DNA of 63,496 nt, counting the filler, from Licmophora abbreviata (taxonomy: Eukaryota), in the NCBI GenBank assembly GCA_900291995.1. It is 12 parts of 12 records of this genome, joined end to end, with 100 filler letters (N's around TTAATTAATTAA, not from the genome) between each part and the next. Parts side by side here need not be neighbours in the genome. Positions count along the whole stretch, not along the records: positions 19,381 to 28,977 come from OLMU01000152.1; 11 more parts are not named here. One strand, 5' to 3'. Within the stretch, counting starts at the first letter, position 1, and each line of letters starts with the position of its first letter. The translations under genes were made by a program, and so were the position numbers. Shown piece by piece: positions 3,588 through 55,325 of the stretch. The notes beneath the pieces were generated by a model, which did no database searches, was not told the origin of the DNA, and was given only the letters and a program-made list of their open reading frames with translations.

Positions 3588-3687
3588 NNNNNNNNNNNNN
3601 NNNNNNNNNNNNNNNNNNNNNNNNNNNNNNNTTAATTAATTAANNNNNNNNNNNNNNNNNNNNNNNNNNNNNNNNNNNNNNNNNNNN
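3588..3687. other. Artificial scaffold linker (44 N + TTAATTAATTAA + 44 N). Same linker at 5964-6063, 10543-10642, 19281-19380, 28978-29077, 34942-35041, 41556-41655, 45664-45763, 51311-51410, 55068-55167 and 62146-62245
   Basis: Identical 100-nt spacer with a six-frame stop core, seen 11 times. Confidence 0.99.
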
Positions 3688-10000: not shown

Positions 10001-11678
10001 AAAATGCAGGTTACTGCCGTTCTTACCTGGACGATGAGCCTACTCCGTCGCTTCAATTCTTTTTCATCTTCCCTCGTTCCTGTTTTCTTTAAGAGAGCTG
10101 AGAGAAGCCCTAGCACTTGTACTTACGAGGTTATGGCAAAAAGGAAAATGAGAAAATGCAGTCCTGCTCGAGCAAGCCACGCAACAGTTGACAAGAACTC
10201 ACTCGTTTTTCCAAGTCCCATGTCGTCACCCAATATCGCTCCTCTATGCTCGGTTATGCATTTATGAAGAAATCGTATTCCGTCTTGTTGGTAGTCTTTC
10301 AGGAATCTATTCATGGGTGCCGGGACTTCGTTTGTCCGCAAGTCTTCTTCGTCTTCGCCGTACTCTAGAACAAGGGGCTCCAGCGGTCGCAGCTCCTCCA
10401 GACTGTCGCCTCCCCTTTGGGGTTTCAAGCCATACTCGGGATCGTTTCCGCCATCACGGTCATCGTCTGATGATTCCACTTCGGCTACGTCCCCAAAAGA
10501 TGACTTTTGCTTATTCTTGCGATGCCGTGGCTTGATCGAATTNNNNNNNNNNNNNNNNNNNNNNNNNNNNNNNNNNNNNNNNNNNNTTAATTAATTAANN
10601 NNNNNNNNNNNNNNNNNNNNNNNNNNNNNNNNNNNNNNNNNNAATTGTCATTGCGTGCTGTCTTTGTCTTGTCGAGTGACAAGCGGGGAGTCCGCTTCCT
10701 TCGTTTCGACGACGGCAGAGCGCGCTTCCGCAGGTTGAGTTCTTCCTCGTCCGTATCAAACAAGCTATCATCATCGCCATCTTCGTCTCGTCTCGGGATT
10801 CGAGCAACGTGCTCAATACGGCCCAAATGGAGAGCTGGTGGGCTTCTCGAGACATAGTGTTCCTGGCGCTTCTGACTTGTCGCTGATCGCATACCATCGG
10901 ACCCATGCCCGTCGTTTTCTCCGGTCGCCGAGGTGGGAGAATCTTCCAGCGCTCGCTGAAGCGTCTCATTAACTCGTCGATGCTTCTCTTTCTTTCGAAC
11001 CAATCGCCTAGTGCACTTGACAAAATCGTCGTCGTCGTCGTCATGCTCGTCAGCGTCCAGTTGGTGTATCTCCTTCTTGGCGACACCAAACGATCGAGTC
11101 AACGGCGGAAGCTCATGCGCGACACCATCTTCTTGTAAATTGTCCATCATGCTAGTTTCCAAGGCAGCTTTCTTCTGTCGCTTCTGCTCGAGTCGCATCG
11201 CAATTGCTACAAAGTCGTCGTCGTCGTCGTTGTTCGCACACGCTTGGGCATGCGGTTTACGGGGCGACATGGACAAAGACACTGAAGATACAGAGGAAGC
11301 GGCGGGAGAGGGCTTCATAGAGACTCCCGCTCTGGGGGGCTTGAAAGTGCCAGGCGATTCTGGGATGCGCGGTCCCATGCTGTGCTGCTGTTGATGGATT
11401 GTATCTCTATTGCCCGGGCTACTAGGCGGCGGTCTCCGATTCTTTCTGCGTCGCTTGATCCATCTGCCTTCTTCATCGTCCCACACATTTTCTTCCACTT
11501 CCAATTTCCGCTGTGTAGGAGCTAATCCGGATAGTTCCTCGTCGTTGTTGCTACCATTCTGTCCTTGTCGCTGATTTCGCAGTTCCAGACTTCGCTTGTG
11601 TCGTTCTTCTTCTCTTCTTCGCCGTTGTTCTTCCTTGCGGCGTCGACGCAGAATTTCTAGATCACCAATCTCATCCAT
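7042..11678 (-). CDS. ERCC6L2: SNF2-family helicase, ERCC6L2/RAD26L (plant Switch2)-like, multi-exon, spans gap 10543-10642
   Basis: [52 protein letters not shown] and [11 protein letters not shown]…RQIYKVQL. Subfamily call rests on the C-terminal motif pattern. Confidence 0.85.
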
Positions 11679-17442: not shown

Positions 17443-17930
17443 GCTCCATCAAAGTGCCAGGTACTTTAGGTACTGTCGTATTGTCAAGTGAGCGTTATGA
17501 GGGGAGCTATAGTGATGACATCTGATGCTCTTTTCCGATCGAAAGGAATACCAGCAATACACAGTCAATCGCCACGCGCGGTTTGTGCGTCTGATGCGAT
17601 TGTGCGCCGCCGCGGCGATGGTGCGAATTTCAAATTCGCGAATTCCAAACTTTCAAACTTTCCTGCGCGTCCATCCGCCGCCGGAAGACTAAACGTGGGC
17701 TCATCGTGGCCGTTCATTTCCGGTAAATGGCCAGACGCGAGATGAAAACCAGAAGTGCGCCGCCCAAAAGATCACTGATCACCACGACACACACAGCATC
17801 AAGGGTTCATGGACACAGCATCACACCAAACACCGCATCATCAACAAACAACGCTGGTGTACATGATACAGATACCTTGAGAGAGAATCCAGAAGAACAT
17901 CGTCCCCTTACGCTACTGTTACATTCGAAG

Positions 17931-19067
17931 ATGTCATCAACGGACTCCAAGCATGCTGGAATCGAAGCACAGGTGAGCTATGCCTTGACTCGACAAACAG
18001 AACTATTTCACCGCCTCACTCGATCGCGTCGACCTCCCGTTCACAATTCTGTTCATCAGCGCGCCAAGGTTGCCTATAACTTTACCGAAGATCTAAATCC
18101 TGGAACTAGAATCATGATTGACCTGAAACGTATCCTGTACAGTGGTGAGTCGGACTTTCAGAGGATCGATGTCATAGAGACTTACTATGGCAAAACGCTG
18201 GTGACTGATGGCAAAACGCAGAGTGCCAAGTTTGATGAGTTTGTGTACCATGAAAGTCTTGTGCACCCGGCCTTGTTTCAGTCCGCCTTACTAAGTGCTA
18301 ATTCAGAAGCGTTGCCCAAGACTGTGTTCATCGGTGGTGGAGGAGAACTCGCGACGGCTCGTGAAGTACTCCGCCACAAGTCAGTAGAAAGAGTTGTCAT
18401 GGTCGACTTGGACGAGACGGTGATTGAAGTTTGTAAGAAGTACCTGCCAGAGTGGGGAGGAGAGAAGGTGGCATCAGATCCACGTCTAGATCTCATCGTG
18501 GGCGATGCGTACAAATACCTGATGGCGACAGAAGAGACTTTTGACGTGATCGTCATGGACATTTCGGATCCCATTGAGGCAGGACCGGGGATCATGTTGT
18601 ACGTTCAGGAGTTTTATCAACATGCCATAACTCGATTGAATATGCCACATGGAGTGTTTGTCACACAGGCAGGTGTGGCCGATTCTGTGCCTCCTCCGCA
18701 CTTTGACGCTGGTTGTGAAGATACGTCATGCTATGGACCTATTCGGAATACCCTTAGCCTGGTCTTTGACTGTGCCATTCCGTATTCTTCCAATATTCCG
18801 AGCTTTGGTGGTGATTGGGGGTTTGTCATGGCGTTTCAAGCACCAGAAGGGAAGGATAAAGAAACAGCACGGAAGGAAACGCTCGCCCCACCGAATGGCC
18901 AGGTCGAAAATCTGATCGCCGCACGGATCACGGGAGGGGAATCGTCACTCGGTCACTATGATGACATTGCTCACACGTCCATGTTTGCGCTATCGAAATC
19001 ACTGCGCAGAAGCTTGGCCAGCGACAAACGAGTCATGACGAAAGAGAATCCAATCTTCATGTATTAG
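17931..19067 (+). CDS. Polyamine aminopropyltransferase, thermospermine synthase (ACL5)-like
   Basis: SDFQRIDV, DGKTQSA…YHESLVHP, FIGGGGE, VVMVDLD and VIVMDISDPIEAGP. Probable in-frame 87-nt intron 17973-18059. Confidence 0.88.
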   Translation: MSSTDSKHAGIEAQVSYALTRQTELFHRLTRSRRPPVHNSVHQRAKVAYNFTEDLNPGTRIMIDLKRILYSGESDFQRIDVIETYYGKTLVTDGKTQSAKFDEFVYHESLVHPALFQSALLSANSEALPKTVFIGGGGELATAREVLRHKSVERVVMVDLDETVIEVCKKYLPEWGGEKVASDPRLDLIVGDAYKYLMATEETFDVIVMDISDPIEAGPGIMLYVQEFYQHAITRLNMPHGVFVTQAGVADSVPPPHFDAGCEDTSCYGPIRNTLSLVFDCAIPYSSNIPSFGGDWGFVMAFQAPEGKDKETARKETLAPPNGQVENLIAARITGGESSLGHYDDIAHTSMFALSKSLRRSLASDKRVMTKENPIFMY

Positions 19068-19912
19068 CTGCGACCGAGATTGTGTCGAGAGAGAGATAGC
19101 GAAATACCGGACGCATCCTTGGGGAAGCCATTCATCTACTTTGTATCAAGTGTTCTCAACAATTGACCCAGCCACTGCTGTTACTAGAGTAATATTATCA
19201 GCATAAGTACCTTCAAAGTGTTTGAATGTCATGCGACCTACTCGAGTACGAAGTTTTCAATGATAAACATGCAGCTTCACNNNNNNNNNNNNNNNNNNNN
19301 NNNNNNNNNNNNNNNNNNNNNNNNTTAATTAATTAANNNNNNNNNNNNNNNNNNNNNNNNNNNNNNNNNNNNNNNNNNNNGAAAGCTTGAGTTGTCCACC
19401 CGTGCAAGGCTTACTAGATACGTCTAAAGTAGCGCTGCCTGGCCAGGAGAATGCGAGACACGTTGAGACCGAGTCGCCATGCTACGACCAAGACCGAGTT
19501 CGACACACCTATTGAAGTCGTATAGTATCTCTTCGAGGCTCTTTAGAGAGTCCTTGGCGTGAACTGCGAACAGATTAAATGTCTCCAGGAGAGATGGCTA
19601 CACCGAAACAAGCTTTCACCATTCCATTGTGATCCAAAGAGCTTAGGCAAACAAGAAATTTTGCTAGTAGAACGGGCGCGCCGTGCGTCTAACACCGCGG
19701 CACGAGAGAGACTGGCAGCAACTGTTCTTCTACGTGACCCTCCGTAGAATTCAGTACCACACTTTGCGCGCCAAACTTTAAAAGTGATGCAATCGCAAGA
19801 GGCGACACGGGCGCATGTGAACACTCTCGATCAACGTCGACCCTGCGAGCACGGCATAGATTCGACTGATCACCCTTGCCCATTCCTTTCTCGACACTTC
19901 TTTATTTAGCCA

Positions 19913-20488
19913 GTGATGAGCTACGAGTCCAGTGGTCCAGAGGAGTGGCCCGTGCAGGTCTTTCGCTACACATCGTCGGGCGGATGGGAGACGGTCGGCA
20001 ATGCCGACGACGTGTACAGCGATACAGCACTGATGGCAACCCCCAACGTCGGCCACATCGCTATTCCTCGCTTGAAAGCTCGTATCCTTGTAGCTCAAAA
20101 GGATAACGAGCCGAACCGCGGCGGACTTCTAGTTGGTGGTAGTCATGGATGTGTCATTCGTCGCCTGGATACTCTGTATGTGCCACTGCACACTGGTGGC
20201 GCGATCGTTCTCAAGTTTCGTAGCAAGGAGGAGTCCGTAGAGTTCTCAGATCGATTCACTACTCTGAATCCTAGGCAAGCCGACATGAGCGATGGAGAAA
20301 CTTCAGGAGCCGTCCAGAGTCGTCATGTTGACGCAGTGTCGTACGTCGTCCGCCTCCTTCACGACAAGGACTTCATGAGATTCGTGGACGGCCTCGAAGA
20401 GACGCTGAAGGATTCGGAAGATGGAGCCAGCATTGTGGCTGCCCTGCAGCACCGGGGAGGTAGTACGACCGGAACACAGAACGAATAG
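19913..20488 (+). CDS. Hypothetical protein, candidate REC114/PHS1 homologue
   Basis: Single-exon 191-aa ORF. Motifs WPVQVFRY, VIRRLDTL, IVLKF and C-terminal LLHDKDFMRFVDGLEETL resemble REC114 signatures as I recall them. Confidence 0.55.
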   Translation: MMSYESSGPEEWPVQVFRYTSSGGWETVGNADDVYSDTALMATPNVGHIAIPRLKARILVAQKDNEPNRGGLLVGGSHGCVIRRLDTLYVPLHTGGAIVLKFRSKEESVEFSDRFTTLNPRQADMSDGETSGAVQSRHVDAVSYVVRLLHDKDFMRFVDGLEETLKDSEDGASIVAALQHRGGSTTGTQNE

Positions 20489-20552
20489 GTAGGCAGTGGA
20501 AGGTACATATATAAACAAAGAGCACCCCTCTGTCTGCGACGAGGACGCATAA

Positions 20553-22190
20553 TCATCTATCTTTAGAAGATCGTTTGTTCAGGCCACGATGGTATTCGAT
20601 GTAGTATTGCAGTGCATGGTCCGTAGGCACACAGTCGATTCTTCCCTGGATGAAAATCCTGTAGGCGTCGTACGCGTAGTCTCCGCAGTGGTACAGGCTA
20701 ACAATGTCCTTCCTCGTCAGATGGAACGCCACCGTGTCACATGCCCCGCTCTCCACTTGCCGTTCATCCAACAGAGCAATCCACTCTTTGCAGAACCGGA
20801 CGAGTCCGCGCGATCTCTTGTGTCGCATGCCCGTTGGCGTCAGCACTGTCGACAAGTCAGATATGTCGGCATTCGCAAGTACTTCGGCTGTCGGCCACTT
20901 ATGCAACACGCGGTGGAGAACCACATCTACCTGATCTCGTGTTGTACGATTGAGTAGAATCGTAGACAATAACATACGCCAAGGATCATCACAGAAGAGC
21001 TCTTCGATCAACCCGAATGGCGATTTCCGACACGCCAAATTTGTCGTGATGTTTTCCAAATGGCTAGCATCTCTGGATAGAATTGGCCTCACTATTGGAT
21101 CCAGTGTCCAGGGTGTAACGTGACGCCTTCGCAAACCATCTGGGGATACGAGTTTCAATCGCTTCAAGACGCCATGCGCCCCATTGTAGCGCTGGACGAT
21201 ATACCTCATCGATGAGATTTCGACATGCATAGGTGGTGCCCACAAAAGGGTAAGGTAGGCAGCGACATGCAACTTACGGTTCCAATGGCATCGACAAAAA
21301 CAGTTTGGACAAGAGAGGGGGTGAAAGCCTGCTTTCGCTTTCGCTTACGGATCTCATGGCGCGCCATGGACTCACCGTCGTCTCCAGCCCATACGAGACA
21401 GCACCTCCAGTCTTTGAGGAACGCGTCTAAGAAAGACAGAGCGGATAGTCCATCAGATACATTACTTCAGCAGAAAGGTAACGAGTTCAGACACCTTTCT
21501 GGCCTTCCTACCTGGTGACCCTCCAGATAGCTCAGCAAGGACTCTCCGCAAGCCGTGCCACTGTCGTGTGGGCGCATAAGCGCGCAGGAAACAAGCATGG
21601 GAGCATAGATGCCTTACCGAATCAGTTATAACTTGAGTCGCCAAGTCACAGCAGGTATTAATTGTGTGAATCGGTGGACTTGCTTCATTAATCTCAGCTG
21701 CTCGTCTCCTGGTCGACTCGAAAGTGGTCTTGAAATCCTCGCAGTGCGCAAACTGATTTGCCACCTGATCCAGCAAAGGACCGCACTTTGAACAAAAAAG
21801 GTGTCGATCATACGAGCACTTGATGTCTCCTTCTAACCGTTCTGGAACCAATGACCCCAAGAAGGAAGGCATAGCTCGAATAGACCCCAGCGCAGACGAC
21901 GGCGAGTCAACAAAGTGTTGGCTCGTAGTCGCACTCGCGATTGCCTTGCTCGTCGTTGGCGACTTCTTTTGCTCGAAGAACGGGCTGCAGTCCTGTCTAG
22001 AGGCGGAGCTCATGCGACGGCTAATTTCACAATGCTGGTGAAGATCAGGCATCAGGAAGGCGGCAACATGCCTTAGCCTTTCACAGACGAGCGCAACATG
22101 GTTTGTCCGCAGCGCCGGATCAGAGTTGCCAACACTATCCGCGCGCCCGAAAATGTCATGATAGTTTGACTCGCTCGACCCACTTTTCAT
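20553..22190 (-). CDS. MBD4: MBD4-like G:T/G:U mismatch DNA glycosylase; intron 21192-21277; apparent frameshift near 21466
   Basis: SPFGLIEELFCDDPWRMLLSTILLNRT, GDYAYDAYRIF and DHAL match the MBD4 glycosylase domain. The N-terminal structure is uncertain. Confidence 0.8.
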
Positions 22191-22283
22191 GCTCCACGCG
22201 GCGGCTTTATGACGTCAGAGCCCCCGATTGCGTTGGTGCAATTTTGTTCATTTCACAGTTGATGACACAGAGAGACGACGACG

Positions 22284-23834
22284 ATGAGCAACAAGGGGAT
22301 AGAAGAGGGCCAGGACGAATGTTTGCCAGTCCCTATGATAATCCAGAATAAAAGAAGTCGAGATGAGAGAGTGAAAGAGCGGAGGAAGCGAATGAGAAGC
22401 GTAATGGTACTTTCAAGATTGATGATGGCATGCTTTGCGTTGTTTCAAATTCTATGCTGGCACACCAACGTCGGTCGTGCCTTTGCTCCCCAGTCACGAC
22501 TTTGGAGGGCTTCACAACAGGGATTTTTCCAGGTCCCCAGGTCCTCTCGCTCCATTCGAACGTATTCTCGACTTTACATGGTCAACTTCGATTCCAATGA
22601 TGCCTTTGAGATCCTGAATCTCACCCCCTCCCCCAATCTGGACAAGAAGGAAATTAAGAGAGCCTACAAGAGAATGGCGCTGAAATTCCACCCCGATGTC
22701 GTTATAAACCAGCAGAGTTCTGTTGACGAAAAGAGGAAAGCCAATGATCGATTCGCCAAAATCAATTGGGCCTACGAGACGCTCATGGGAAAGCGACAGG
22801 ACGACTCGAGGACGAAATCAGGTGCGGCCTCATCTTCATCGTCGGCGGGAGGATACACTCCGCCTCATAGACGAACGGGGAGTGCATACACTTCCAGTGG
22901 AAAAACTGACTTTTCAACCGATTGGAGAGACTACATGCCCAAGTACGACGATCAGGAGTACGATGCCGGCGGTGACTCGTGGAGTTCAATATTTGGTGAT
23001 CTGCTTACGGGTGTGGCAGGCGCAGCGGCCGATGGTGGGGGTGGGGTGTTTCGCGACTTCGTTGAGTTCTTGGAAAGTAATGTGGATGGTTATTCGACGG
23101 GCGATGACGATAATGAGCTCCGAATATTGCTGCAGACAGGAACGCTGTCTGAGGTTGCCGAGGAAATGGACGATACCGATCTGGTGGTGCAACAGCTCAT
23201 CACGAAGATATCTGGTGTTGACGAAGCGGTAGAGATTGCAAAAGCGGATTTAAAGGTCGCAACGCGTTACAGTGAAAAGATGCAACTCGACGAAAAGGTT
23301 TCTGAATTGCAGGCACGCAAGAAGATCGTTGACGGATATCTGAAGAGGGCGCGCAAACGTCTTCTGAGCCTACAGTCTCGATACAAGGAGCTCATCGTTG
23401 CAGGCGCCAATGATACACGGGGCAGGGGCAGCCCCCACTCATCTTCTACAGAGTCAGAGCCACCAAGTGCTTCCTCCTCGCCGTATCAGTCAAGTTCGAC
23501 GAGCGATTCCACCGATGCAAACGGTGATTGGAAGCACCAAGGGTTTGGATCGAGTGGACGACGAGCCAGGGGCAGTTCGCGCCGCGCAAGGCGACCGTCA
23601 TCCTCATCTTACTCAAACCAGCGCGCATCGCCGTCGACGCCAAACTCTTGGCCTTCCTCGTCTGCCTCGACCAGATCGTCATCGTCGCCGGCAAGCAGCA
23701 GCCCAGTAGCGGCGGTACCCCCTCACCGACGTTCCCCTGCAGACGTTCGCAAAGAACAAGACGACAGGCGGAGACTTAGGGAGCTCAAGGTGGACGAGGA
23801 ATTCGACCAGCTCAAGGAGGATCTTGGCCTTTAG
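22284..23834 (+). CDS. Plastid J-domain protein, CDJ2/DJC73-like (paralogue 1)
   Basis: Signal peptide followed by GRA-FAP, J-domain (AYKRMALKFHPD…FAKINWAYETL), FVEFLE motif, coiled coil and C-terminal FDQLKEDLGL. Confidence 0.82.
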   Translation: MSNKGIEEGQDECLPVPMIIQNKRSRDERVKERRKRMRSVMVLSRLMMACFALFQILCWHTNVGRAFAPQSRLWRASQQGFFQVPRSSRSIRTYSRLYMVNFDSNDAFEILNLTPSPNLDKKEIKRAYKRMALKFHPDVVINQQSSVDEKRKANDRFAKINWAYETLMGKRQDDSRTKSGAASSSSSAGGYTPPHRRTGSAYTSSGKTDFSTDWRDYMPKYDDQEYDAGGDSWSSIFGDLLTGVAGAAADGGGGVFRDFVEFLESNVDGYSTGDDDNELRILLQTGTLSEVAEEMDDTDLVVQQLITKISGVDEAVEIAKADLKVATRYSEKMQLDEKVSELQARKKIVDGYLKRARKRLLSLQSRYKELIVAGANDTRGRGSPHSSSTESEPPSASSSPYQSSSTSDSTDANGDWKHQGFGSSGRRARGSSRRARRPSSSSYSNQRASPSTPNSWPSSSASTRSSSSPASSSPVAAVPPHRRSPADVRKEQDDRRRLRELKVDEEFDQLKEDLGL

Positions 23835-25289
23835 ACGTTATCAGACTATCCCATTTCCTCAATGACAGCTTGTATTTCGGTCCTAAGATGACAACAACGA
23901 GACTACTACCGCGACGAAGGCGCCGGCTCGTCTTAAGTCTTTCGACAGGCGTCACACATGGAACGCGAAACTGAGCGCGACGATCTTTCTCAAAGGCTCG
24001 ATAAGAGGTTGCTACAACCTCGCGAGACCTTTTTAAGGCGTATCGTATGCTGTGCACGCGTCGAATCGATTGCATTTGCCGATTCGGGTCCTACACGAGG
24101 CCTCGGCCATTTTGTGTCAGTACGCCACAAAGCGTGATGGAGTATCAGTACGGGGCGTGTCGAGACGTATTTCATCTACTAAGCGAGTTTTTGACGCCTG
24201 GTCTAAACAGATGCCCTGGTCGCGCCCAATCTCTCAACCGAGCAGTCTTGTGGAGTTACAAGACAGATCATTGCCAGCTACTACAGGTCGAATATTCACC
24301 CTCGACGACTTGCTCAGCTGATTATACTGCGAGATGCGGCGTCACCTAGCATGGCATCGGCGATGAAAGGAAATTTGACGCGGGTTCTACACTTCCGGAG
24401 ACTCCTCTTGCAGCAGTGCTGCTCAGTAGCTTAACCGTTGCCGCTCCACTCCTGAGCGACAGGTAAGAGTATAGCTCTGTACTAGCTGGAGTGCTGTTAG
24501 AATACTTCAAAGCTGTCATTTCGGCAGAGGAACAGTACAGTGATACCCCATGGGTAGGATATTATCGAGAGTACCAGTAATGCCACTCTCTCCCATACTG
24601 GTACACAAGCTAACGGTACCAGGTACCAGTTTGCGTTAACACGTTAGAAATGAAAAAGCTGTTAGTTAGGCATAGGCAGACTGCTACACAGTATGCTAGA
24701 TAACTGAATCCACGACGTGGCCACTGATGCGTTGAAACTAATCGTGAGCAATGTAGATTGGTGGACGAAACATCATGATCTAATGATGTTCCGACCAGTC
24801 TCCTGCCCATGTTCGTAATGTACTGCACAGCTGGTCCCGAGTCGCTCGCCATGGGGGGATTTGCGAGTGACTACTACACACTACTCCGGAGTACTCCGAG
24901 TAGATAACAAATGTACAATGACGCCCGTGTTTGTCTTTCGACCGGGCAGGCGGGTAGTCTCTGCATTGGTTTGTCCTAACATTCATGTTCCCCAGGAGAA
25001 TCGTAGCCAGCATTCTCTTGATGTGACACATTTGTCTGCGTCTGACGTACGAAGTAGCCATCTGCATATCATCTGTTCAAACCATATATTCGTTTCTTAG
25101 AGGACGTCCGAAATGGTTCAAACCACTTAATCGCATACGTCAGAACCCGTTGAACATCGATAAGTTTAGCATAGATCTTCGCAGTAGTGACGTAGAGGCT
25201 TCCTACCATGACATACGGACTCGGCAGCCGCCGATCGATCGAGCACGAGATCTTCCGCCATCCATCAACGCAAAAGCGCTTCTCATTGA

Positions 25290-27686
25290 ATGAAGATTGC
25301 CCAGAACAACATTGATCCACGACAACGACTTAGACTCCAAAAGACAATGTTACTGAACTCAGCGGCCAACCCCCCAGACGCCAGACCCAGGCGACTCGAG
25401 TCGGTGAAGAGACGGCCGAAATACTGCATGACTCGGCTCCAGGTGTGCCTGGCGATAGCTCAAGTTCTGATCTGTTGGAATACCGAATTTGCCCGTGCAT
25501 TTGCTCCTCAGTCCCGTCTTAGGAATGCAGCCTGTATCTCCAAGGCTTCCAGAATTGAATCTCACAGGCGATCCCAGACTCGACTGTGCTATCTCGTCAA
25601 CTTCGATTCCAACGACGCTTTCGAGATTCTCAACCTCAGTCCTTCACCGGGTCTCGACAAGAATGCGATCAAGAGAGCCTACAAGAAAATCGCTCTGAAT
25701 TATCACCCCGATATTGTTGTTACACAAAAAAGTAGCCAAGATGAAAAGAAATGCGCCAACGATCGATTTGCCAAGATCAACTGGGCGTACGAGACGCTCA
25801 TGGGGAAGCGAAAAGACTTGGCTCCGTCGGCGCCATCGGCTGCCACGGCTCCGTCGAAAGCACGGAGCGAGCACACACAGCCCCATGGACGTGCGACACG
25901 TACTGATGCATCCAATGGTAGAAAATCGGATGATGTGATGGATCGAAACCTCCGGACACTGTTGGAGACTGGAACACTTGAAGAAGTCGGAACAGAAATG
26001 CGCGATACCAACCTGGTTTCACAGCAGCTGTCGAGAAAGCTCTCCGACATTGAAGACGAGCTGACCATGATTCAGATGGACTTGCGGGTTGCTCTACGGT
26101 ATTTTGAGATTAAGGTTATGCAGGAGAAGGCTGCCGAACTACAGGCCCGTCGGGGCGCGGTTGAGGTATCCCTGACGAGGTCTCGCAATCGCCTCCAACT
26201 CCTCCAATCGAGATATACGGAGCTGATCTCGGCACGGGCTGGGGAGCACGGAGACGCGTCACAGAAGTCGACTCCGGCGAGCGGGACAGAGTCAGCGGCA
26301 ACTAATAAAGACTGGGTTGATACGGATGGCGATTGGAAGCATCAAGGGTTTGGATCTAGCGGAAGAGGTGGCCGAGGCAATCCCGGTCGGTCAGCTCGCC
26401 CGTCCACTTCGGAACATTCAAATGCGGCACCGTCCTCAGGTGGACGATCTTCACCCTTCTACTACACTGCGGGGTCGAATGCTGACGCGTCAACTTTCGA
26501 CAACTCGAACGGTCGCGCTCAGTCCCAGTCTGAGACTAACAGCGGTGGCGCGACACGAACGGCGTCAGGTGGGCAATCAACCAATAGCGGGTCAACGCCT
26601 CCTAGCTCGGTGTACTCCAGTCAGCAAAAATCTGCACAGTCGTCGCCGAGCAGCCAAAGCGCGACCGCGTCTTCAGGTCAACGAATTTCCACGGATCCGA
26701 AAACGTTTTGGTCCAACCATCCGGGGACGACCACGGCAGCTTCGGCAAACCCGCAAGGAACAAAGGCTGAACCATCGAATTTTTCATACGTCTATGCACA
26801 GAAGTCGAATGGCAGACAGTCGCCGCCGCGATCAGCCCGTGACCCTTTGGATCCTTCGCAACGACCCGAGGCGAAGTCTTGGTCCCCCTACTCGACGGCA
26901 AAGAGGCCAACCCCTCGCACATCCGGCACCAAGATGCCCCCACCTGGAGCGTCCACTGCTACTGAAAAGTCTACGTTTTGGTCCAAGTATACAGCGGCAT
27001 CGGCGACACCACCCTCGCACATGTCGAGCGAGGGTTCGACAGTGTCCAGGGATCAGGCGTCTTCTTTTTGGTCGGGCTACACTACAGCATCGGAGACACC
27101 ACGCCACCCGTCTTCGCAAACGCCGAGTCCTATATCTGGAGACCCCCCTAGGAAAGCTTCCGCAGCAGCTGAGCGTTCAACGTTTTGGTCCGGCTACTCG
27201 CCAGCCTCCGAGAAAAGACCTTCATCACACGCGCCAAATCCGATCTCGGCAGACCCTCCGCGAAGAAGCTCTACTGATCCATCACCTCTTTGGGCAGCCT
27301 ACATGAAAGCGCCACCTCCACCCTCACCACGCGCAAGCGGTTCTCCACCTACACCTTCAGGACCTAATACACAGCACGTTCAGCCATCTTCTTTCTGGTC
27401 CAACACGAACAGGCCGAACTCAGTAGAAACCCGATCCCCTCCGTCGCCAGCCCCTTCTGTAGCCGCGCGACGAGGCTCGACTCGGCCTTCCACGCTTTGG
27501 TCTGCCTACGCGAACAGCCCAGGCTCGTCGGCACGTGACCAATTTTGGTACGCAACTGACGCCACAGGTACACACCAAGCGCTTGAGGACGGATATCAAA
27601 GATTTCGGGAATTGAAGGTAGACGCGTCAAGGTTTAGGAGCCAATGGACTGGCCAATGGAAAACCTTGGGTCTGCAATACGATTAG
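25290..27686 (+). CDS. Plastid J-domain protein, paralogue 2, with long S/P/T-rich tail of FWSxY-like repeats (likely signal-peptide start at 25428)
   Basis: ARA-FAPQSRL, VNFDSNDAFEILNL, YHPD, DWKHQGFGSSGR and RELKVD are shared with paralogue 1. Confidence 0.8.
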   Translation: MKIAQNNIDPRQRLRLQKTMLLNSAANPPDARPRRLESVKRRPKYCMTRLQVCLAIAQVLICWNTEFARAFAPQSRLRNAACISKASRIESHRRSQTRLCYLVNFDSNDAFEILNLSPSPGLDKNAIKRAYKKIALNYHPDIVVTQKSSQDEKKCANDRFAKINWAYETLMGKRKDLAPSAPSAATAPSKARSEHTQPHGRATRTDASNGRKSDDVMDRNLRTLLETGTLEEVGTEMRDTNLVSQQLSRKLSDIEDELTMIQMDLRVALRYFEIKVMQEKAAELQARRGAVEVSLTRSRNRLQLLQSRYTELISARAGEHGDASQKSTPASGTESAATNKDWVDTDGDWKHQGFGSSGRGGRGNPGRSARPSTSEHSNAAPSSGGRSSPFYYTAGSNADASTFDNSNGRAQSQSETNSGGATRTASGGQSTNSGSTPPSSVYSSQQKSAQSSPSSQSATASSGQRISTDPKTFWSNHPGTTTAASANPQGTKAEPSNFSYVYAQKSNGRQSPPRSARDPLDPSQRPEAKSWSPYSTAKRPTPRTSGTKMPPPGASTATEKSTFWSKYTAASATPPSHMSSEGSTVSRDQASSFWSGYTTASETPRHPSSQTPSPISGDPPRKASAAAERSTFWSGYSPASEKRPSSHAPNPISADPPRRSSTDPSPLWAAYMKAPPPPSPRASGSPPTPSGPNTQHVQPSSFWSNTNRPNSVETRSPPSPAPSVAARRGSTRPSTLWSAYANSPGSSARDQFWYATDATGTHQALEDGYQRFRELKVDASRFRSQWTGQWKTLGLQYD

Positions 27687-27889
27687 TCTTACGGGAATCG
27701 TTCTCACAATATAACACACCAGCTAGCATAAGTTAGGTACACATTGAGTTGTTTTCGGATACAATTGCTCTCCTCTCTGGCATGTAAGAAACCATCATTC
27801 TTCTTCTCTCTCTCTCTAGATTGACACATCGCCTTTCTTGAATTTTGTTCGAGTCAGATTCACAGCCCCTTCCTAGCAGCAGTATATAT

Positions 27890-28095
27890 ATACGACGAGG
27901 CTGGGCCGTGGTCCGCCTTGACTACGCGAACAGCCCAGGCTCGCAGTTTGCGGCCAATACTGGTACGCAATTGACGCGACAGGCACACACGGAAAACTTT
28001 GGGTCTGCACTGAAGCCTATATCGTCGCGGCCATCGTTCATCATCTCGAATGACTTAGTATAGGTACACATTGAGTGAAATCCGAATATAATTGG
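27890..28095 (+). pseudogene. Degenerate duplicate of the 3' end and 3' flank of J-protein paralogue 2
   Basis: ctacgcgaacagcccaggctcg (27922 vs 27506), tggtacgcaa, aaaac[c/t]ttgggtctgca and taggtacacattgagt recur in the same order, with an internal deletion. Confidence 0.75.
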
Positions 28096-28124
28096 TGTAC
28101 TCTCTAGTCTTATACAGCTCCTAC

Positions 28125-28478
28125 CTATGCACCAGCTTCGACATTGCCTTTCTTGATTCTTGTTCGTCGAGTGAGCTTCAGATACCTCATTTGATCAGCG
28201 TCGCTCGATTCTTCCAAAGGCAATCGGCGCAACATGGCGAGCGTCTTGCGTGGCTTTGCAAGGTCACTAACCCAATCCGGATATTCGCCCCGCTCAATGG
28301 CGACAGGGGGGTCTTTTCCCTTGATGAAATTCAATCCTAGAATGGGAGTTCCAGGTTTCATTGCCAAGGCAGTTGATACCGTAGGGTGCACACAGGACGA
28401 TACCAAGCGGCGCCGCGCCTCAAGCGGACCAAGTTTTCTGGCGGAAGCAGCTTTCAATACGCGATTCATGCCTCTCAT
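28125..28478 (-). CDS. MRPL54: Mitochondrial ribosomal protein mL54
   Basis: GLNFIKGKDPPVAIERGEYPDWVSDL…RYLKLTRRTRIKKGN, with an Arg-rich presequence. Start codon uncertain. Confidence 0.8.
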   Translation of the reverse strand: MRGMNRVLKAASARKLGPLEARRRLVSSCVHPTVSTALAMKPGTPILGLNFIKGKDPPVAIERGEYPDWVSDLAKPRKTLAMLRRLPLEESSDADQMRYLKLTRRTRIKKGNVEAGA

Positions 28479-29077
28479 GCTCTCTAAAGCCAATTTGTTG
28501 AACCCACACTGTGCTGATAAAAGGAATCCGACGTAGTCTAGTGAGGAGAGGATTCGCTATAGGATCTGCGTTGCCGCGGCGTCGCTCGGCATCGGCTTTA
28601 TTGTGCGTGTTTGCGGCGTCTTTCGTCTGTTCGTCGCATGCGAACACTCCTCCCGATGAGATGTCATGGCGACGACCACACTCCATTCGATGCCATGCCG
28701 CTCGTCGCGCTGTGCGTTTCAGCACCATGCAAAGACCAACGGAATGTCATCGCTAATACTATACCGACCAGCAGTCGTTTGAGCAGAGTCTGGATGTGTA
28801 CAAGCCCGAAAAGCAGTATCAACAATCATCGGCAGAGGAAAACTTGCCACTTGTGCTAGTGGTCGGAAGTGCATGGCTTGGTCACCGCAGCATCATTTAT
28901 GCGGGGACCTCGTGGTGGAATTCGTCTGGCCCGAGGGCTTTCGCAGGACAAGGATGCGTCACTGTCTGTATTCGACGNNNNNNNNNNNNNNNNNNNNNNN
29001 NNNNNNNNNNNNNNNNNNNNNTTAATTAATTAANNNNNNNNNNNNNNNNNNNNNNNNNNNNNNNNNNNNNNNNNNNN

Positions 29078-29995
29078 ACGTTCCGACGCATGGGACCACA
29101 CCTTCCCTGGTCCATTTTTAACTGCTCCGCGTGTCGCCGTATAGTTCGCTGTACCTTTGCTCGAAGGCCACTGCGTACTCGAAACTTTGTGTCTTGAGAA
29201 AGTTGAAGCAGCTCGCCCGCTGTCCGATGTATGCGACCAGCTCGTTGACGGCCCATTGTTGACTGTGCGACTCGACGACTCCCTGGTAGCGCCGCCTTTT
29301 CTTGCGCTCCAGTGAGCTGACGCCGAGTGCCCAAAGCCGATATCCTGGGGGCAACGCACTGATGGTCCAGTATTCTTCCGCGCTCTCGGCCATTGTGAAG
29401 TTGGTCGGCAGTACGGCCAAGAGGACGATGGCTCGTTTGCTCCACCAGTTGACCACCATCCTTCTGATGTCTCTTCCTCGGATGGATCTGTAGTGAGAGT
29501 CTCGTAGGCCCAGTTGATTCTTGCAAACCGATCGTTTGCTAATCGTTTTTCCTCTTCGGAGCTGTGATTATCAAGCACGACATCAGGGTGAAACTTCATG
29601 GCCATTTTCTTGTAGGCGCTCTTGATGGCCTTCTTGTCGATTTGGCCGGGTGTTGGGCTAAGATTTAGGGTGTCGAGGGCATCGCTGACGTCGGGATTGA
29701 CGAGATAGTACAGTCGAGATGGCAATCGGATGGAGCGATATACACTGGGAAGTGAAGGAAGCTTTGTTCGGGGAGCATTCAATGGGCGTGGTTGGGGGCT
29801 AAAGGCGCGACCAACCTGACAGGAACAACAGAGAATGTGACAGAGCAGCACGAACGTCACTTGGAGCCGAATCATGGCATCGTTCGTGCGTTTTATACTT
29901 GATTCGAGTCTTTCCTCTCTTCGACAAACAAGGTTCCTAGCCATTTTGGGCGAATCATGCCCTGGTTGCCCCTGTCTCGGCGCGTTCTTCCTCAT
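29078..29995 (-). CDS. Plastid J-domain protein, paralogue 3 (3' end lost in gap; likely signal-peptide start at 29875)
   Basis: MIRLQVTFVLLCHILCC…VGRA-FSP and AYKKMAMKFHPD…NDRFARINWAYETL. Confidence 0.78.
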
Positions 29996-30471
29996 GGTCG
30001 GCACCGCATTGGAGGATTTGTAACGAATTGATCGATTGCCGATGGCAGTCAAGATCTCTCCGCTCGAGATCAGAATCACATACGTCATACTGCCAAATTG
30101 AATACAAAATAAATAATTGATATAAAGTTTCGAGCGTTTTGCCCTAAACAATCGTTTGAAATGATAGAACGACTCTTTATAAGCATCCTTAATCATGTAT
30201 AAGCTAATTATCGGCCGCGAGCGCGGCGTTCGTCAACAGCCCGATAGACGATCCCCCAATGAACATTACTCGTCGTTCAGGTAGCAAGACTATAAGATGA
30301 TACAGATACGATACGATTACTCATGCAAGAGGATACTTTTCAACCTAACCACGAGAAAGAGGAAAGCTTACTATCGATCGGCTTAAGATCATCCATCGCA
30401 CTCGTGTGCTACTCGTCGATGGAAGAAAGTAGGCAAACCATTGCACGCACAAAGATGTGTTGCTCTCAATC

Positions 30472-33467: not shown

Positions 33468-34522
33468 CTACTTTCCAGGAGGACTAAGGTCGACGTCTTC
33501 GGCTTCTTCGTAAAAATATTCGCGCGGAAGAGGAATGACGTAACGACTCGGTACTCGACGATGGGGAGTCCGGGCTTGCTCGTCTTCGTCGTCCTCAAAC
33601 TTCACAATGATTTCATGCACTAGCGGCGTGCTGGTATTGACCAGCTTCCACACGGGACTCTTGCTGACCTTGGCCCGATAAAAGGAGGTTGTCTCCGGGA
33701 AAATGGCCATGCACTCTTTGTTCTTGGGGAAGGAGCCTTCGGCACCTGTGGAGAGACGCATAACATGAGTCCACGGCAGACGAATCAATTTGGACGTATC
33801 GTCTTCGTCTTGTACGTCATACGTCTCTGTGTCGGGATAGAATCGTTGGACACTTGCAAGGATCCAGGAACCGTTCTCGTCAGTGCGTGTGACCTTGGCA
33901 GCCACTTGTTCACCAGGGCGTGCCGCAAACTTGGATCGACGACGCTTAATCTGAAGAGGTGTTGGGGCGCGTCCATCAAAGTATGACGTAGTTCGGGAGT
34001 AGTTTGTGGAGCCTCGTCCCGCATGATCAAGTCGTTCCAAAAAGCCCCCAATGGCAGCTTCCTCGTCAACTTCGAGGGACTCAAAGTGACGGGCGACGGC
34101 GACTGCCAATTCCGACGGTGGTGCCTCTGGACGAACCGAAACTCCTATAAGAAAAAGAGGAAAGGTTGTGAGGCAAACATTTGCCATGTCAAACAAGGGT
34201 GGAGAGCTGCACTTCGAGAGACTCTCGGGGGTCCAACGCTGCAGTTGGCAAACGACGACGGGGTGAACACAATCCGGAATGAATTACAGAAACGAAAAGC
34301 CAAGAAAGGGCCCCGATTACAGAAATAACACAATAGCAGGATATCCGTACCCCCAAACGCACCATGATGATCGATGTATCCCAGCAAGGTCAGTCCGGCA
34401 AGTTTGCGAAAGTCGAGACCAACGCCGCGTGGGTAAGATCGACTGTGCGTTCCCTTCTGCGTCTGGCGTCGCTGCTGCTTGCCGCTCACAGTTGGAGCAT
34501 TTCCGACAGGGACAGGAAACAT
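33468..34522 (-). CDS. SGF29: SGF29-type tandem Tudor protein with N-terminal SAP30 Sin3-binding-like domain, 2 exons
   Basis: GEQVAAKV…WILASV…YDVQDED…AIFPETTSFYRAKV…VKFEDDE (SGF29 Tudor). N-terminal LDFRKL…LAVAVARHFESLEVDEEAAIGGFL. Intron 34145-34362. Confidence 0.82.
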
Positions 34523-41086: not shown

Positions 41087-41655
41087 GGTCGTACGCACTA
41101 CAATAGATCCGATCGTCATACCGGTATGTATCAACATTGAACATCAATCGAGACGGCTGTTGACGAAGCGAGAGGACGGCATATCGACTCACTCGACTCA
41201 TTCACGTCGCCTTGCGCGCTCGCGCGGCGGTGTGAGGTGTGTGTGTGAAAATGTCAGACGATTGCTGCGACCGGCAGCGGCGGCGATGATGCGGTGCCGA
41301 CACACTCTATACTAATAGGTCACGGGGGAAAAAAGAAAACGACAGGGACAGTAGACCCCCCGATCGTGTAGACAACGAATGCCGGGCTAGGCCTTGCCCT
41401 CCGAAACTGTCGAAGGGGTTTATTGGAGGAGCTGAGTTGTATCAAATCGAGCAAGTCAGGAAAAGGGCCATGAAAATTGAAACGCGGCGCCGCCGACGCT
41501 ATCGGCGCGGAAACACTAAGAAGATGGTGCTGTTCGCGCAAGCACTTGTCTTTCTNNNNNNNNNNNNNNNNNNNNNNNNNNNNNNNNNNNNNNNNNNNNT
41601 TAATTAATTAANNNNNNNNNNNNNNNNNNNNNNNNNNNNNNNNNNNNNNNNNNNN

Positions 41656-54700: not shown

Positions 54701-55325
54701 GATCTTGTGTTTTCGTGGAACCTTTTGTGAGAGAGCAAAGGAAACAAGAAAGCAATCCGCGATGAAAAGAAAAATGTGCGGCTCTCGGCGCGCGTGACGT
54801 GGCAGGGACGAGTTGAATGTTCGCAGGACAGCATGACCGACCAGAGAAGCCCATCCCACTCGGAATTGAACGAGAGCGGCTCGAAGAATAAGGAAGAGTG
54901 CAGTTGCCAGCTTCCTTTCAAGTCACTTCATGCGAGGAAAACATCCGAAAGGAAGGGAGTACACGAACCCCAATACCCGAAAGGAAGGAGTATTCGAACC
55001 CCAATAGACGTAACTCTCTCTCTCTAGAGCTTATTCTGATTCAAAAGTCATGTATACGACGAGCGATNNNNNNNNNNNNNNNNNNNNNNNNNNNNNNNNN
55101 NNNNNNNNNNNTTAATTAATTAANNNNNNNNNNNNNNNNNNNNNNNNNNNNNNNNNNNNNNNNNNNNCAACGCAGCGCGCGCCCGAGATAAGCTCCGCGC
55201 GGCGATGCGATGTGTGTGCGTCGCCATGATGTTGTTGTGTCGCATGATGCATTGTATCATACTAGTACTGAATACCGTCGTATTCTATTGCTCTGGACGC
55301 CTGAGAGATCAGCTGACATTCATTC

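What the first reader, a model, noticed from the sequence alone, without database searches (positions are those of the whole stretch)
19913..20488. Orphan ORF with REC114/PHS1 signature motifs: candidate meiotic DSB accessory factor in a diatom
Seen: a 191-aa ORF reading EEWPVQVFRY…GWE…VIRRLDTLYV…IVLKF…, then a linker, then SYVVRLLHDKDFMRFVDGLEETL. Known (recalled): REC114 has an N-terminal PH fold with W.L.RY, IVRRMDCLLF and FRVQF motifs, and a C-terminal MEI4-binding helix like LCLMDQNFPAFVEEVEKEL. Motif order and spacing agree. REC114/MEI4/IHO1 proteins diverge so fast that they are often missed in protist meiotic-gene inventories. Inference: this is a stramenopile REC114, implying an RMM-type SPO11 control module. 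An E2F-like site sits upstream (19768-19775).
Basis: partly seen in the sequence, partly recalled or inferred. Interest (0 to 1): 0.8.

Follow-up and report, generated by a model that had tools for sequence, protein, structure and literature searches.

The report
Likely diatom REC114 meiotic break factor
A small, previously unnamed diatom gene encodes a protein whose predicted fold and tail motif best match REC114, a helper of the enzyme that cuts DNA to start meiotic recombination, a factor usually reported missing from surveys of protists in this broad group.

Summary
The ORF is real: 19916-20488 (+), 190 aa, with every quoted peptide present. It is not an orphan. 146 relatives at 50% clustering share its layout, including unnamed proteins of Phaeodactylum, Nitzschia and Leptocylindrus.

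Two independently modelled members have an 8-strand PH-like domain plus helix. Their top three Foldseek PDB hits are the three mouse REC114 PH-domain entries both times. For the second model these are the only hits with E<=1e-3. Purely geometric Z-scores tie REC114 with EVH1, CARM1-N and Dcp1.

A variable linker (19-126 aa) leads to a C-terminal helix-turn-helix. It reproduces the published REC114 SSM7 register: a near-invariant Phe after the turn and a near-invariant Glu at +8, with hydrophobic positions in phase. Protein-language-model neighbours are REC114/PHS1 clusters.

Against this, HMMER gives no REC114 Pfam or PDB hit (0 of 149 members). No MEI4 partner and no meiotic expression could be tested. 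The E2F-like site exists but is not above chance.

Verdict: a probable (about 0.65) highly diverged REC114 orthologue, a new member of a known kind. I also found that the window is 12 contigs joined by spacers.

The parts
19916..20488 (+). Complete single-exon ORF, 190 aa plus stop: the candidate diatom REC114
   Evidence: It aligns end to end with relatives of 170-260 aa.
19940..20269 (+). N-terminal PH-like domain (residues 9-118): eight strands followed by helix 104-117. Family-invariant residues are R17, R83 and F101; near-invariant are W11, W24, C107 (Ser in this protein), F110 and N118.
   Evidence: AF2 model, pLDDT 82.9. Foldseek top 3 are mouse REC114 PH. VIA Z is 8.7 to REC114 against 9.7-10.2 for EVH1/CARM1/Dcp1.
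20153..20179 (+). Strands beta6-beta7, VIRRLDTLY (residues 80-88). I81, R83 and Y88 (family consensus L88) sit at the spacing of mouse V97, R99 and L104, which contact TOPOVIBL.
   Evidence: Mouse residue numbers come from Nore 2022 passages. Family counts: R83 140/140; position 81 V66/I38; position 88 L116/140. The register is inferred, not taken from a residue-level structural alignment.
20270..20302 (+). Low-confidence linker (residues 119-129; pLDDT 56-69 for residues 121-140)
   Evidence: Measured from N118 to Y143, the linker is 19-126 aa (median 51) in the 116 of 151 sequences that have both domains.
20303..20455 (+). C-terminal three-helix region (helices 130-149, 151-166, 168-180)
   Evidence: The same arrangement appears in the second model.
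20342..20407 (+). SSM7-like helix-turn-helix core (residues 143-164, YVVRLLHDKDFMRFVDGLEETL): F153 after the turn and E161 at +8
   Evidence: F153 144/147, E161 135/147, L147 140/147, V157 121/147. Published yeast and mouse positions. Pattern scan.
19768..19775 (-). E2F-like octamer TTTGGCGC, 141 nt upstream of the ATG
   Evidence: It is present but not enriched (15 found, 10 expected).
19281..19380 (.). Artificial spacer (44 N + TTAATTAATTAA + 44 N) that marks the start of the contig carrying the ORF (piece 19381-28977)

Best explanation
The ORF encodes a compact, highly diverged diatom orthologue of REC114 (yeast Rec114, S. pombe Rec7, plant PHS1).

Shown here: a conserved protein family with an N-terminal PH-like domain whose closest solved relatives, by Foldseek, are mouse REC114; a length-variable, low-confidence linker; and a C-terminal helix-turn-helix that reproduces the SSM7 register of REC114.

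Inferred mechanism, by analogy with mouse and yeast: two copies pair through the C-terminal helices to form a ring. The ring clasps the N-terminal helix of a MEI4-like HEAT-repeat protein, with F153 pointing into the ring and E161 pairing with a basic MEI4 residue. The PH-domain sheet (beta1, beta2, beta6-beta8, carrying invariant R17 and R83) binds a short helix of a SPO11 partner (TopoVIB-like) and/or of a Mer2/IHO1-like protein. In this way the assembly recruits and licenses SPO11-2 to make meiotic double-strand breaks in gametangia.
For: (1) The family is real and constrained. There are 148 hits at E<=1e-3, and 149 of 151 sequences fit one profile spanning both domains. R17 is invariant in 118/118, R83 in 140/140 and F101 in 146/146.

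(2) Fold. The AF2 models have pLDDT 82.9 (P0001) and 88.0 (P0016, 32% identical to P0001). Both have eight strands plus a helix. Foldseek against 350,542 PDB chains ranks the three mouse REC114 PH entries 1-3 for both models. For P0001: 7qwv_A 2.0e-3, 6nxf_A 3.4e-3, 6hfg 4.6e-3, with 16-22% identity against 7-16% for the non-REC114 rows listed below them. For P0016: 2.3e-4, 2.9e-4 and 8.7e-4, the only three hits at E<=1e-3, at 19-21% identity. VIA-align puts 6nxf_A first of 993 chains for P0016 (Z 10.7, rmsd 3.2, 101 aligned). CARM1-N (2OQB), which Kumar 2018 name as the closest structural homologue of REC114 PH (passages), is also among the top hits.

(3) SSM7. Liu 2023 (preprint passages) give yeast I402, L406, a turn, near-invariant F411, I412, V415, V418, near-invariant E419, L422 and M425. 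Daccache 2023 equates F411 with mouse F240. Laroussi 2023 give mouse L231, L235, F240, V244, V247 and I254. P0001 has V144, L148, a turn at D150, F153, M154, V157, L160, E161 and L164 at the same offsets, so 9 of 10 positions match; only +14 is Ser. F153 and E161 are among the three most conserved residues of the tail, with L147. A pattern built from the published offsets (F, E at +8, at least 5 of 6 hydrophobic positions) hits 100 of 151 family sequences. It hits once in 57,313 residues of six-frame window translation, and that one hit is this ORF. It hits 0 times in 67,749 residues of HSP60 homologues, and in 63 of 20,000 shuffles of P0001.

(4) Architecture. [quoted passage not shown] This matches.

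(5) ESM Atlas. The four nearest clusters carry REC114-like, PH_PHS1 or Meiotic_rec114 Pfam families, with scores 0.87-0.81. These are a lead only.

(6) Partner surface. Mouse R24, V97, R99 and L104 contact TOPOVIBL. Diatom R17, I/V81, R83 and L88 (consensus) are conserved at compatible spacing.
Against: No sequence-profile link was found. P0001 has 0 Pfam hits at E<=10. 0 of 149 members hit PF15165, PF03525 or PF25349 at E<=0.05. phmmer and a 54-sequence profile against PDB sequences find no REC114 chain at E<=10.

Geometry alone does not single out REC114. For P0001, VIA-align gives REC114 Z 8.7 against 9.7-10.2 for Homer/Ena EVH1, Dcp1 and CARM1-N: rank 46-47 of 992 and rank 10 of 48,161. 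For P0016, REC114 leads, but within 1 Z of EVH1 domains.

The Foldseek E-values are modest. ESM scores are below 0.9, and the tail alone gave no usable ESM hit.

The SSM7 pattern was written after I had seen the sequence, and amphipathic helices share periodicity. The mouse R117 equivalent is not conserved (V98).

No MEI4, Mer2 or TopoVIB-like partner was examined, and no expression data were obtained. Many family members sit on 1-2 kb contigs, and one named member is a culture-transcriptome (MMETSP) record. If those contigs are transcripts of non-sexual material, expression may not be strictly meiotic.
Confidence: 0.65

Rival explanations
1. A diatom-lineage PH/EVH1-type adaptor that is unrelated to REC114. 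The N-terminal domain would bind a short peptide of some non-meiotic partner, the helical tail would be an oligomerisation module, and the resemblance to REC114 would be convergence within a very common fold.
For: EVH1, CARM1-N and Dcp1 domains score as high as or higher than REC114 by VIA-align: Z 9.7-10.2 against 8.7 for P0001, and within 1 Z for P0016. No HMMER-level similarity to any REC114 model was found. Weak Pfam hits are to generic PH families: PH_35 in 5 of 149, and Rpn13 Pru, PH_FT_C and VID27_PH in one each. At least one member is a culture-transcriptome record and many lie on transcript-sized contigs.
Against: Foldseek (structure plus sequence) puts the three REC114 entries first in two separate models, with the highest identities in the lists. 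The ESM neighbours are specifically REC114/PHS1. The tail reproduces the SSM7 register, including the two residues that the literature calls nearly invariant. The whole three-part architecture matches.
Confidence: 0.27
2. A divergent Dcp1-type mRNA-decapping cofactor, with an EVH1 domain and a C-terminal helical oligomerisation domain.
For: S. pombe Dcp1 (5j3q_A) has Z 9.7, rank 2 of 48,161. Human Dcp1a (4b6h_B) is the first non-REC114 Foldseek hit for P0016 at 2.2e-3. That Dcp1 has an EVH1 domain plus a C-terminal trimerisation domain is recalled, not tested here.
Against: 0 of 149 members match any Dcp1 Pfam model at E<=0.05. From general knowledge, Dcp1 is usually well detected across eukaryotes. 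Identity to Dcp1 chains is 8-12%, against 15-22% to REC114. The tail motif matches SSM7.
Confidence: 0.03
3. A chance ORF or mis-called gene.
For: None beyond the lack of a Pfam family.
Against: 146 representative relatives have conserved columns in both domains. The AF2 models are confident. Named predicted proteins exist in Phaeodactylum, Nitzschia and Leptocylindrus.
Confidence: 0.01

Closest known systems
Mouse REC114 (PDB 6HFG, 6NXF, 7QWV; C-terminal residues 224-255 bind MEI4)
   Same: Both have an eight-strand PH-like domain plus a helix. REC114 gives the top Foldseek hits for two family members and VIA Z 8.7-10.7 with 98-102 residues aligned. Conserved Arg, aliphatic, Arg and Leu residues lie at the spacing of R24, V97, R99 and L104. 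The tail has Phe after a turn, as F240 does, with hydrophobic positions at -9, -5, +4, +7 and +11.
   Different: It is 190 aa against 259 aa. The linker is 24 aa against about 70. There is no HMMER-detectable similarity. The R117 equivalent is Val. Position +14 (I254, important for dimerisation in mouse) is Ser/Thr. There is an extra third helix (168-180).
S. cerevisiae Rec114 / S. pombe Rec7
   Same: The SSM7 register matches: near-invariant F411 and E419 correspond to near-invariant F153 and E161, and I402, L406, V415, V418 and L422 have hydrophobic equivalents. The layout of PH domain, disordered region and C-terminal helices is shared.
   Different: Yeast has a disordered region of about 250 aa. 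The Pfam model PF03525 does not match. DNA-binding residues were not compared.
Plant PHS1 (Pfam PH_PHS1, PF25349)
   Same: PHS1 clusters are among the nearest ESM Atlas neighbours, at 0.82-0.80.
   Different: PHS1 proteins in those clusters are about 325-353 aa. PF25349 gives no hit. Arabidopsis PHS1 is reported dispensable for DSBs (passages).
C. elegans DSB-1/DSB-2
   Same: AlphaFold predicts an extra helix after SSM7 in these REC114 paralogues (Liu 2023 passages). The diatom models also have a third helix after the SSM7-like pair.
EVH1/WH1 domains (Homer, Ena/VASP, SPRED), the CARM1 N-terminal domain, and the Dcp1 EVH1 domain
   Same: They share the PH-like superfold, with VIA Z 9.4-10.2.
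   Different: Identity is 8-15%. No member hit an EVH1/WH1-type or Dcp1 Pfam model (0 of 149). There is no methyltransferase domain, since the whole protein is 190 aa. Their tails were not found to resemble the SSM7-like motif here.

Membership tests
REC114 / Rec114 / Rec7 / PHS1 | N-terminal PH-like domain (two antiparallel sheets plus a C-terminal helix) | tested here: met
   AF2 models of two members, pLDDT 82.9 and 88.0, each with eight strands plus a helix. Hundreds of PH-superfold hits with Z>=8.
REC114 / Rec114 / Rec7 / PHS1 | PH domain closer to REC114 than to other PH-like domains | tested here: inconclusive
   Foldseek says yes, with REC114 at ranks 1-3 twice. VIA-align ranks it 1 of 993 for P0016, but tied within 1 Z. 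For P0001 it ranks 46-47 of 992 and 10 of 48,161, 1.0-1.5 Z below EVH1/CARM1/Dcp1.
REC114 / Rec114 / Rec7 / PHS1 | Length-variable disordered region between the PH domain and the C-terminal helices | tested here: met
   A low-pLDDT stretch around 119-140. Linker of 19-126 aa in 116 of 151 sequences. Feature as described by Daccache 2023.
REC114 / Rec114 / Rec7 / PHS1 | C-terminal SSM7 helix-turn-helix with near-invariant Phe after the turn, Glu at +8 and in-phase hydrophobic residues | tested here: met
   9 of 10 published yeast positions are matched. F153 is 144/147 and E161 is 135/147. The pattern is found in 63 of 20,000 shuffles and nowhere else in the window.
REC114 / Rec114 / Rec7 / PHS1 | Recognition by curated sequence models (Pfam PF15165, PF03525, PF25349) or by profile search against REC114 chains | tested here: not met
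   0 of 149 members at E<=0.05. P0001 has 0 hits at E<=10. No REC114 chain at E<=10 in PDB sequence searches. Known orthologues are covered by three separate Pfam models and are reported to share well below 10% identity. This is therefore an operational criterion, not a biological one.
REC114 / Rec114 / Rec7 / PHS1 | 2:1 complex with a MEI4 orthologue through the C-terminal helices | not testable with these tools
REC114 / Rec114 / Rec7 / PHS1 | Meiotic expression and requirement for SPO11-dependent DSBs | not testable with these tools
   This needs sexual-stage RNA-seq of a species with a known orthologue id, and genetics.
Dcp1 (mRNA decapping subunit) | Match to the Dcp1 EVH1 sequence family | tested here: not met
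   0 of 149 members at E<=0.05. There is structural similarity only, Z 9.4-9.8.
EVH1/WH1 proteins (Homer, Ena/VASP, SPRED) | Match to the WH1/EVH1 sequence family | tested here: not met
   0 of 149 members at E<=0.05. Structural Z is 9.4-10.2 at 8-14% identity.
CARM1-type N-terminal domain | PH-like domain fused to an arginine methyltransferase core | tested here: not met
   The whole protein is 190 aa with no further domain.

The most novel reading that the evidence does not exclude
This family is the REC114 of diatoms, a factor that inventories of related SAR protists report as not found. It is a minimal version of about 190 aa (PH domain, a linker as short as 19-24 aa, and SSM7 plus one extra helix). 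That would mean the REC114-MEI4 type of SPO11 control predates the split of stramenopiles from animals, fungi and plants. It would also mean the gene is kept intact even in Phaeodactylum tricornutum, a species in which, from my recollection, sex has not been observed.
Probability: 0.6. Interest if true: 0.6.

Novelty: new member of a known kind. Interest (0 to 1): 0.5.

Why it matters
Meiotic gene inventories of SAR protists list REC114 as not found, or do not look for it. The diatom toolkit paper never mentions REC114, MEI4 or MER2 (0 occurrences each). It was found in 0 of 18 chrysophyte transcriptomes, was not recovered in Symbiodiniaceae and was missing in a rhizarian. Brinkmeier 2022 report REC114 and MEI4 conservation for metazoans (passages).

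A credible diatom REC114 would do three things. It would show that SPO11-2 in stramenopiles is controlled by the same accessory scaffold as in yeast, mouse and plants. It would supply a profile of 149 sequences for finding the gene in other SAR lineages, and a bait for finding the MEI4- and Mer2-like partners. It would add a candidate meiosis marker for detecting diatom sex in metatranscriptomes, where few meiotic markers are currently used.

If the rival is true, this is just another uncharacterised PH-like protein family.

Tried and rejected
- Whole-genome search for MEI4, Mer2 or TopoVIB: no genome is held for this window.
- Word-indexed profile search meant to reach named REC114 proteins: only 4 hits, all family members.
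- HMM-HMM comparison with a REC114 alignment: not run. No REC114 sequence could be obtained from any tool, and sequence from memory is not accepted.
- ESM Atlas on the tail alone (residues 126-190): no usable hit.
- Complex prediction on two copies of residues 126-190: no verdict (score 0.02, mark 0.32; controls not run; the tool did not use my alignment).
- Expression: no RNA holder was listed. Laying runs X1-X3 gave one 209-nt contig on 19754-19943 and nothing on the ORF body. This says nothing about expression.
- Promoter conservation of the E2F-like site: the 54-sequence alignment had no searchable stretch. A six-sequence alignment found one 1,109-bp metagenome contig, too little for a comparison.
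- The bacterial-type promoter and terminator scan of 19068-20700 is irrelevant for a eukaryote.
- Earlier findings of this scan: nothing by place, by sequence or by words.
- Literature: no paper in the library holds the accessions of the Phaeodactylum or Leptocylindrus members. Kumar 2010 (PMC2885662), which defined the SSMs and surveyed taxa, is not held. I therefore cannot exclude that it lists a stramenopile orthologue.
- Supplements of Bilcke 2025 (PMC12618581) and of the diatom sex-transcriptome papers were not opened. I have no gene ids for those species. Those supplements may show whether orthologues are sex-induced.
- The Dcp1, EVH1 and CARM1 readings were considered and rejected (see rival explanations and membership tests).
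- Neighbour-gene context: abandoned once the window proved to be joined contigs.
Full report
OBSERVATION

The ORF runs from ATG 19916 to TAG 20486-20488 on the plus strand and encodes 190 aa. An in-frame TAG at 19907-19909 closes the frame.

The window is not one continuous sequence. Eleven 100-nt spacers (44 N, TTAATTAATTAA, 44 N) divide it into 12 pieces. The ORF lies in piece 19381-28977, so only 535 nt of true upstream sequence exist. The spermidine-synthase gene at 17727-19067 is on another contig and is not a neighbour.

An HSP60-type ORF of the window is 81-91% identical to its best relatives. The rows with legible organism names are diatoms.

IS IT A GENE?

phmmer against 1.84 billion representative proteins found 148 hits at E<=1e-3, of which 58 were at E<=1e-10. 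I aligned 54 full-length members, out of the 151 sequences held (A1). A profile built from A1 recovers 149 of the 151; P0128 and P0146 do not fit.

The matches span both ends of the protein and differ mainly in the middle. Across the hmmalign of all 151 sequences, conservation is:
- R17 118/118, R83 140/140, F101 146/146, F110 145/146
- W24 115/119, N118 140/147
- L147 140/147, F153 144/147, E161 135/147

Of 30 members looked up, three carry organism names and all three are annotated as uncharacterised: Leptocylindrus danicus, Phaeodactylum tricornutum XP_002177448 and Nitzschia sp. Nitz4. One search gave none. The family therefore spans centric and pennate diatoms. It is not an orphan, but it is unnamed.

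SEQUENCE-LEVEL SEARCHES FOR A KNOWN FAMILY FAIL

- P0001 has no Pfam hit at E<=10.
- None of 149 members hits any family above its cutoff. None hits the three REC114 models (PF15165, PF03525, PF25349), Dcp1 or WH1 at E<=0.05.
- The only recurrent weak hit is the generic PH_35 model, in 5 of 149 members (earlier partial scans were).
- phmmer and a profile search of PDB chain sequences give no REC114 chain at E<=10.

This is the main evidence against membership. Its weight is limited. Daccache 2023 state that distant RMM homologues share well below 10% identity (passages). Pfam also needs three separate models for the known orthologues.

FOLD

AlphaFold2 with A1 gives pLDDT 82.9. The model has strands at 11-19, 23-27, 39-44, 47-50, 55-58, 81-83, 86-90 and 96-101, then helix 104-117. 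A low-confidence stretch follows, then helices 130-149, 151-166 and 168-180.

Foldseek against 350,542 PDB chains ranks the three mouse REC114 PH entries first:

| Chain | E-value | Identity |
|---|---|---|
| 7qwv_A | 2.0e-3 | 16% |
| 6nxf_A | 3.4e-3 | 22% |
| 6hfg | 4.6e-3 | 18% |
| CARM1-N (2oqb_A), next hit | 5.5e-3 | 10% |

No hit reaches 1e-3.

To test robustness I modelled P0016, which is 32% identical to P0001, from a 64-sequence alignment (pLDDT 88.0). The same three entries are again ranks 1-3 and are the only hits at E<=1e-3: 2.3e-4, 2.9e-4 and 8.7e-4, at 19-21% identity. Dcp1a follows at 2.2e-3.

Geometry alone is less decisive.
- For P0001, VIA-align gives CARM1-N Z 10.2 and EVH1 domains about 10, with REC114 at 8.7 (rmsd 3.1-3.4, 98-102 aligned; ranks 46-47 of 992).
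- In the Foldseek-independent search for P0001, REC114 is rank 10 of 48,161, behind Homer3, Dcp1 and CARM1-N, all at 9.7.
- For P0016, REC114 6nxf_A is rank 1 of 993 (Z 10.7, rmsd 3.2, 101 aligned), but within 1 Z of SPRED1, EVL and CARM1-N.

Kumar 2018 report CARM1-N (2OQB) as the closest structural homologue of the REC114 PH domain (passages). The diatom models therefore sit in the same structural neighbourhood.

C-TERMINAL MOTIF

Liu 2023 (preprint passages) describe SSM7 as helix 2, a turn and helix 3. A nearly invariant Phe (yeast F411) follows the turn, E419 is nearly invariant, and I402, L406, I412, V415, V418, L422 and M425 are conserved hydrophobic residues. Daccache 2023 equate F411 with mouse F240. 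Laroussi 2023 list mouse L231, L235, F240, F243, V244, V247 and I254.

In P0001 the model places a turn at D150, and the same offsets relative to the Phe read as follows:

| Offset from Phe | -9 | -5 | 0 | +1 | +4 | +7 | +8 | +11 | +14 |
|---|---|---|---|---|---|---|---|---|---|
| Yeast Rec114 | I402 | L406 | F411 | I412 | V415 | V418 | E419 | L422 | M425 |
| P0001 | V144 | L148 | F153 | M154 | V157 | L160 | E161 | L164 | S167 |

Only +14 fails. F153 and E161 are, with L147, the most conserved residues of the tail.

I turned the published offsets into a pattern: F, E at +8, and at least 5 of 6 hydrophobic positions. Its hits were:
- 100 of 151 family sequences
- once in 57,313 residues of six-frame window pieces, and that hit is this ORF
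- 0 times in 67,749 residues of HSP60 homologues
- 63 of 20,000 shuffles of P0001

One caveat applies: I wrote the pattern after seeing the sequence.

The third helix after SSM7 recalls the extra helix that AlphaFold predicts in C. elegans DSB-1/2.

ARCHITECTURE AND PARTNER SURFACE

[quoted passage not shown] Here the linker between N118 and Y143 is 19-126 aa, median 51, in the 116 of 151 sequences that have both domains. P0001 has 24 aa.

Nore 2022 (passages) list mouse R24, V53, K95, V97, R99, M100, C102, L104, M115, R117 and Q119 on strands beta1, beta2 and beta6-beta8 as the TOPOVIBL-binding surface. V97 and L104 are essential, and R99 and R117 are well conserved.

The diatom invariants R17 (beta1) and R83 (beta6) fit this surface. 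Conserved I/V81 fits mouse V97 and the family-consensus L88 fits L104, at the same i, i+2, i+7 spacing. The R117 equivalent is Val. This register is inferred, because no residue-level structural alignment was available.

INDEPENDENT LEAD

The ESM Atlas neighbours of the whole protein are:
- a cluster with REC114-like Pfam in 15% of members (score 0.87)
- a REC114 cluster (0.82; PF15165 in 92% of members)
- two PHS1 / Meiotic_rec114 clusters (0.82, 0.81)

The tail alone gave nothing.

WHAT COULD NOT BE SHOWN

- No genome is held, so MEI4, Mer2/IHO1 and TopoVIB-like partners were not sought. The 'RMM module' remains an inference.
- No expression evidence was obtained.
- The E2F-like octamer is present but is not above chance.

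LITERATURE

- The diatom meiotic toolkit paper has no occurrence of REC114, MEI4 or MER2 (find).
- REC114 was found in 0 of 18 chrysophyte transcriptomes (passages).
- It was not recovered in Symbiodiniaceae and was missing in a rhizarian.
- Brinkmeier 2022 report REC114/MEI4 conservation for metazoans, in the passages seen.
- The Ectocarpus axis paper cites REC114 only in its references, and speculates about unknown IHO1/Mer2-like factors.
- Bilcke 2025 use SPO11-2, MER3, MND1, MSH4, MSH5 and RAD51-A as diatom meiotic genes (sections 6, 7 and 15 read).
- Searches for 'REC114' with 'diatom' (8 papers), with 'stramenopile' (6 papers) and with diatom genus names returned no paper that I read reporting a diatom REC114. 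I read passages of 5 of them.
- Kumar 2010 is not held. Supplements were not opened.

VERDICT

Four lines of evidence converge on one rare family: the fold, a ranking that combines structure and sequence in two separate models, a register-exact match to the family's hallmark C-terminal motif, and the language-model neighbours. The missing HMMER signal and the tie with EVH1-type domains keep confidence at about 0.65.

I class this as a new member of a known kind, with moderate interest.

Noticed in passing
window 3588-3687, 5964-6063, 10543-10642, 19281-19380, 28978-29077, 34942-35041, 41556-41655, 45664-45763, 51311-51410, 55068-55167, 62146-62245: Eleven identical 100-nt spacers (44 N + TTAATTAATTAA + 44 N) show that the window is 12 contigs of about 1.3-9.6 kb joined with six-frame stop linkers. 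Gene order across spacers is not real, and ORFs that touch spacers are cut genes (for example 6016-6741, 10587-11678 and 29030-30196, all minus strand).
   Followed up: yes
window 20553-21230 (-): A convergent 225-aa ORF ends 64 nt from the stop of the REC114-like ORF, so the 3' ends of the two genes must nearly touch or overlap. It has a weak HhH-GPD (DNA glycosylase superfamily) match of 24.3 bits, below the 26.2 cutoff.
   Followed up: partly
window 19787-19909 (+): A 40-codon upstream ORF lies in the same frame as the main ORF and stops 6 nt before its ATG. It could be a uORF or chance. The transcript start is unknown.
   Followed up: no
window 22284-23834 (+), 25290-27686 (+), 29030-30196 (-): Three ORFs each have a DnaJ domain (E 8e-12 to 8e-10). 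The first two are on the same contig as the REC114-like gene, so this may be a local paralogue pair.
   Followed up: no
window 35342-36610 and 36862-39855 (+): XRN1-type 5'-3' exoribonuclease domains are split over two adjacent ORFs on one contig: XRN_N and XRN_M in the first, D1, D2/D3 and SH3-like in the second. This is probably one gene with an intron or a frame change.
   Followed up: no
window 49195-50145 (+): A bacterial-type RecA (PF00154, E 1.4e-109) lies in a nuclear-looking contig. It is presumably an organelle-targeted recombinase.
   Followed up: no
window 4065-5645 (-), 6016-6741 (-), 33468-34187 (-): There are ADA2-like pieces (a TADA2A-like domain, and a ZZ finger on another contig) and an SGF29 tudor protein. 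These are SAGA-type chromatin components on separate contigs.
   Followed up: no
family members P0022/P0298: Phaeodactylum tricornutum keeps an intact 191-aa member, XP_002177448, annotated 'predicted protein'. From my recollection, sexual reproduction has not been observed in this species.
   Followed up: partly
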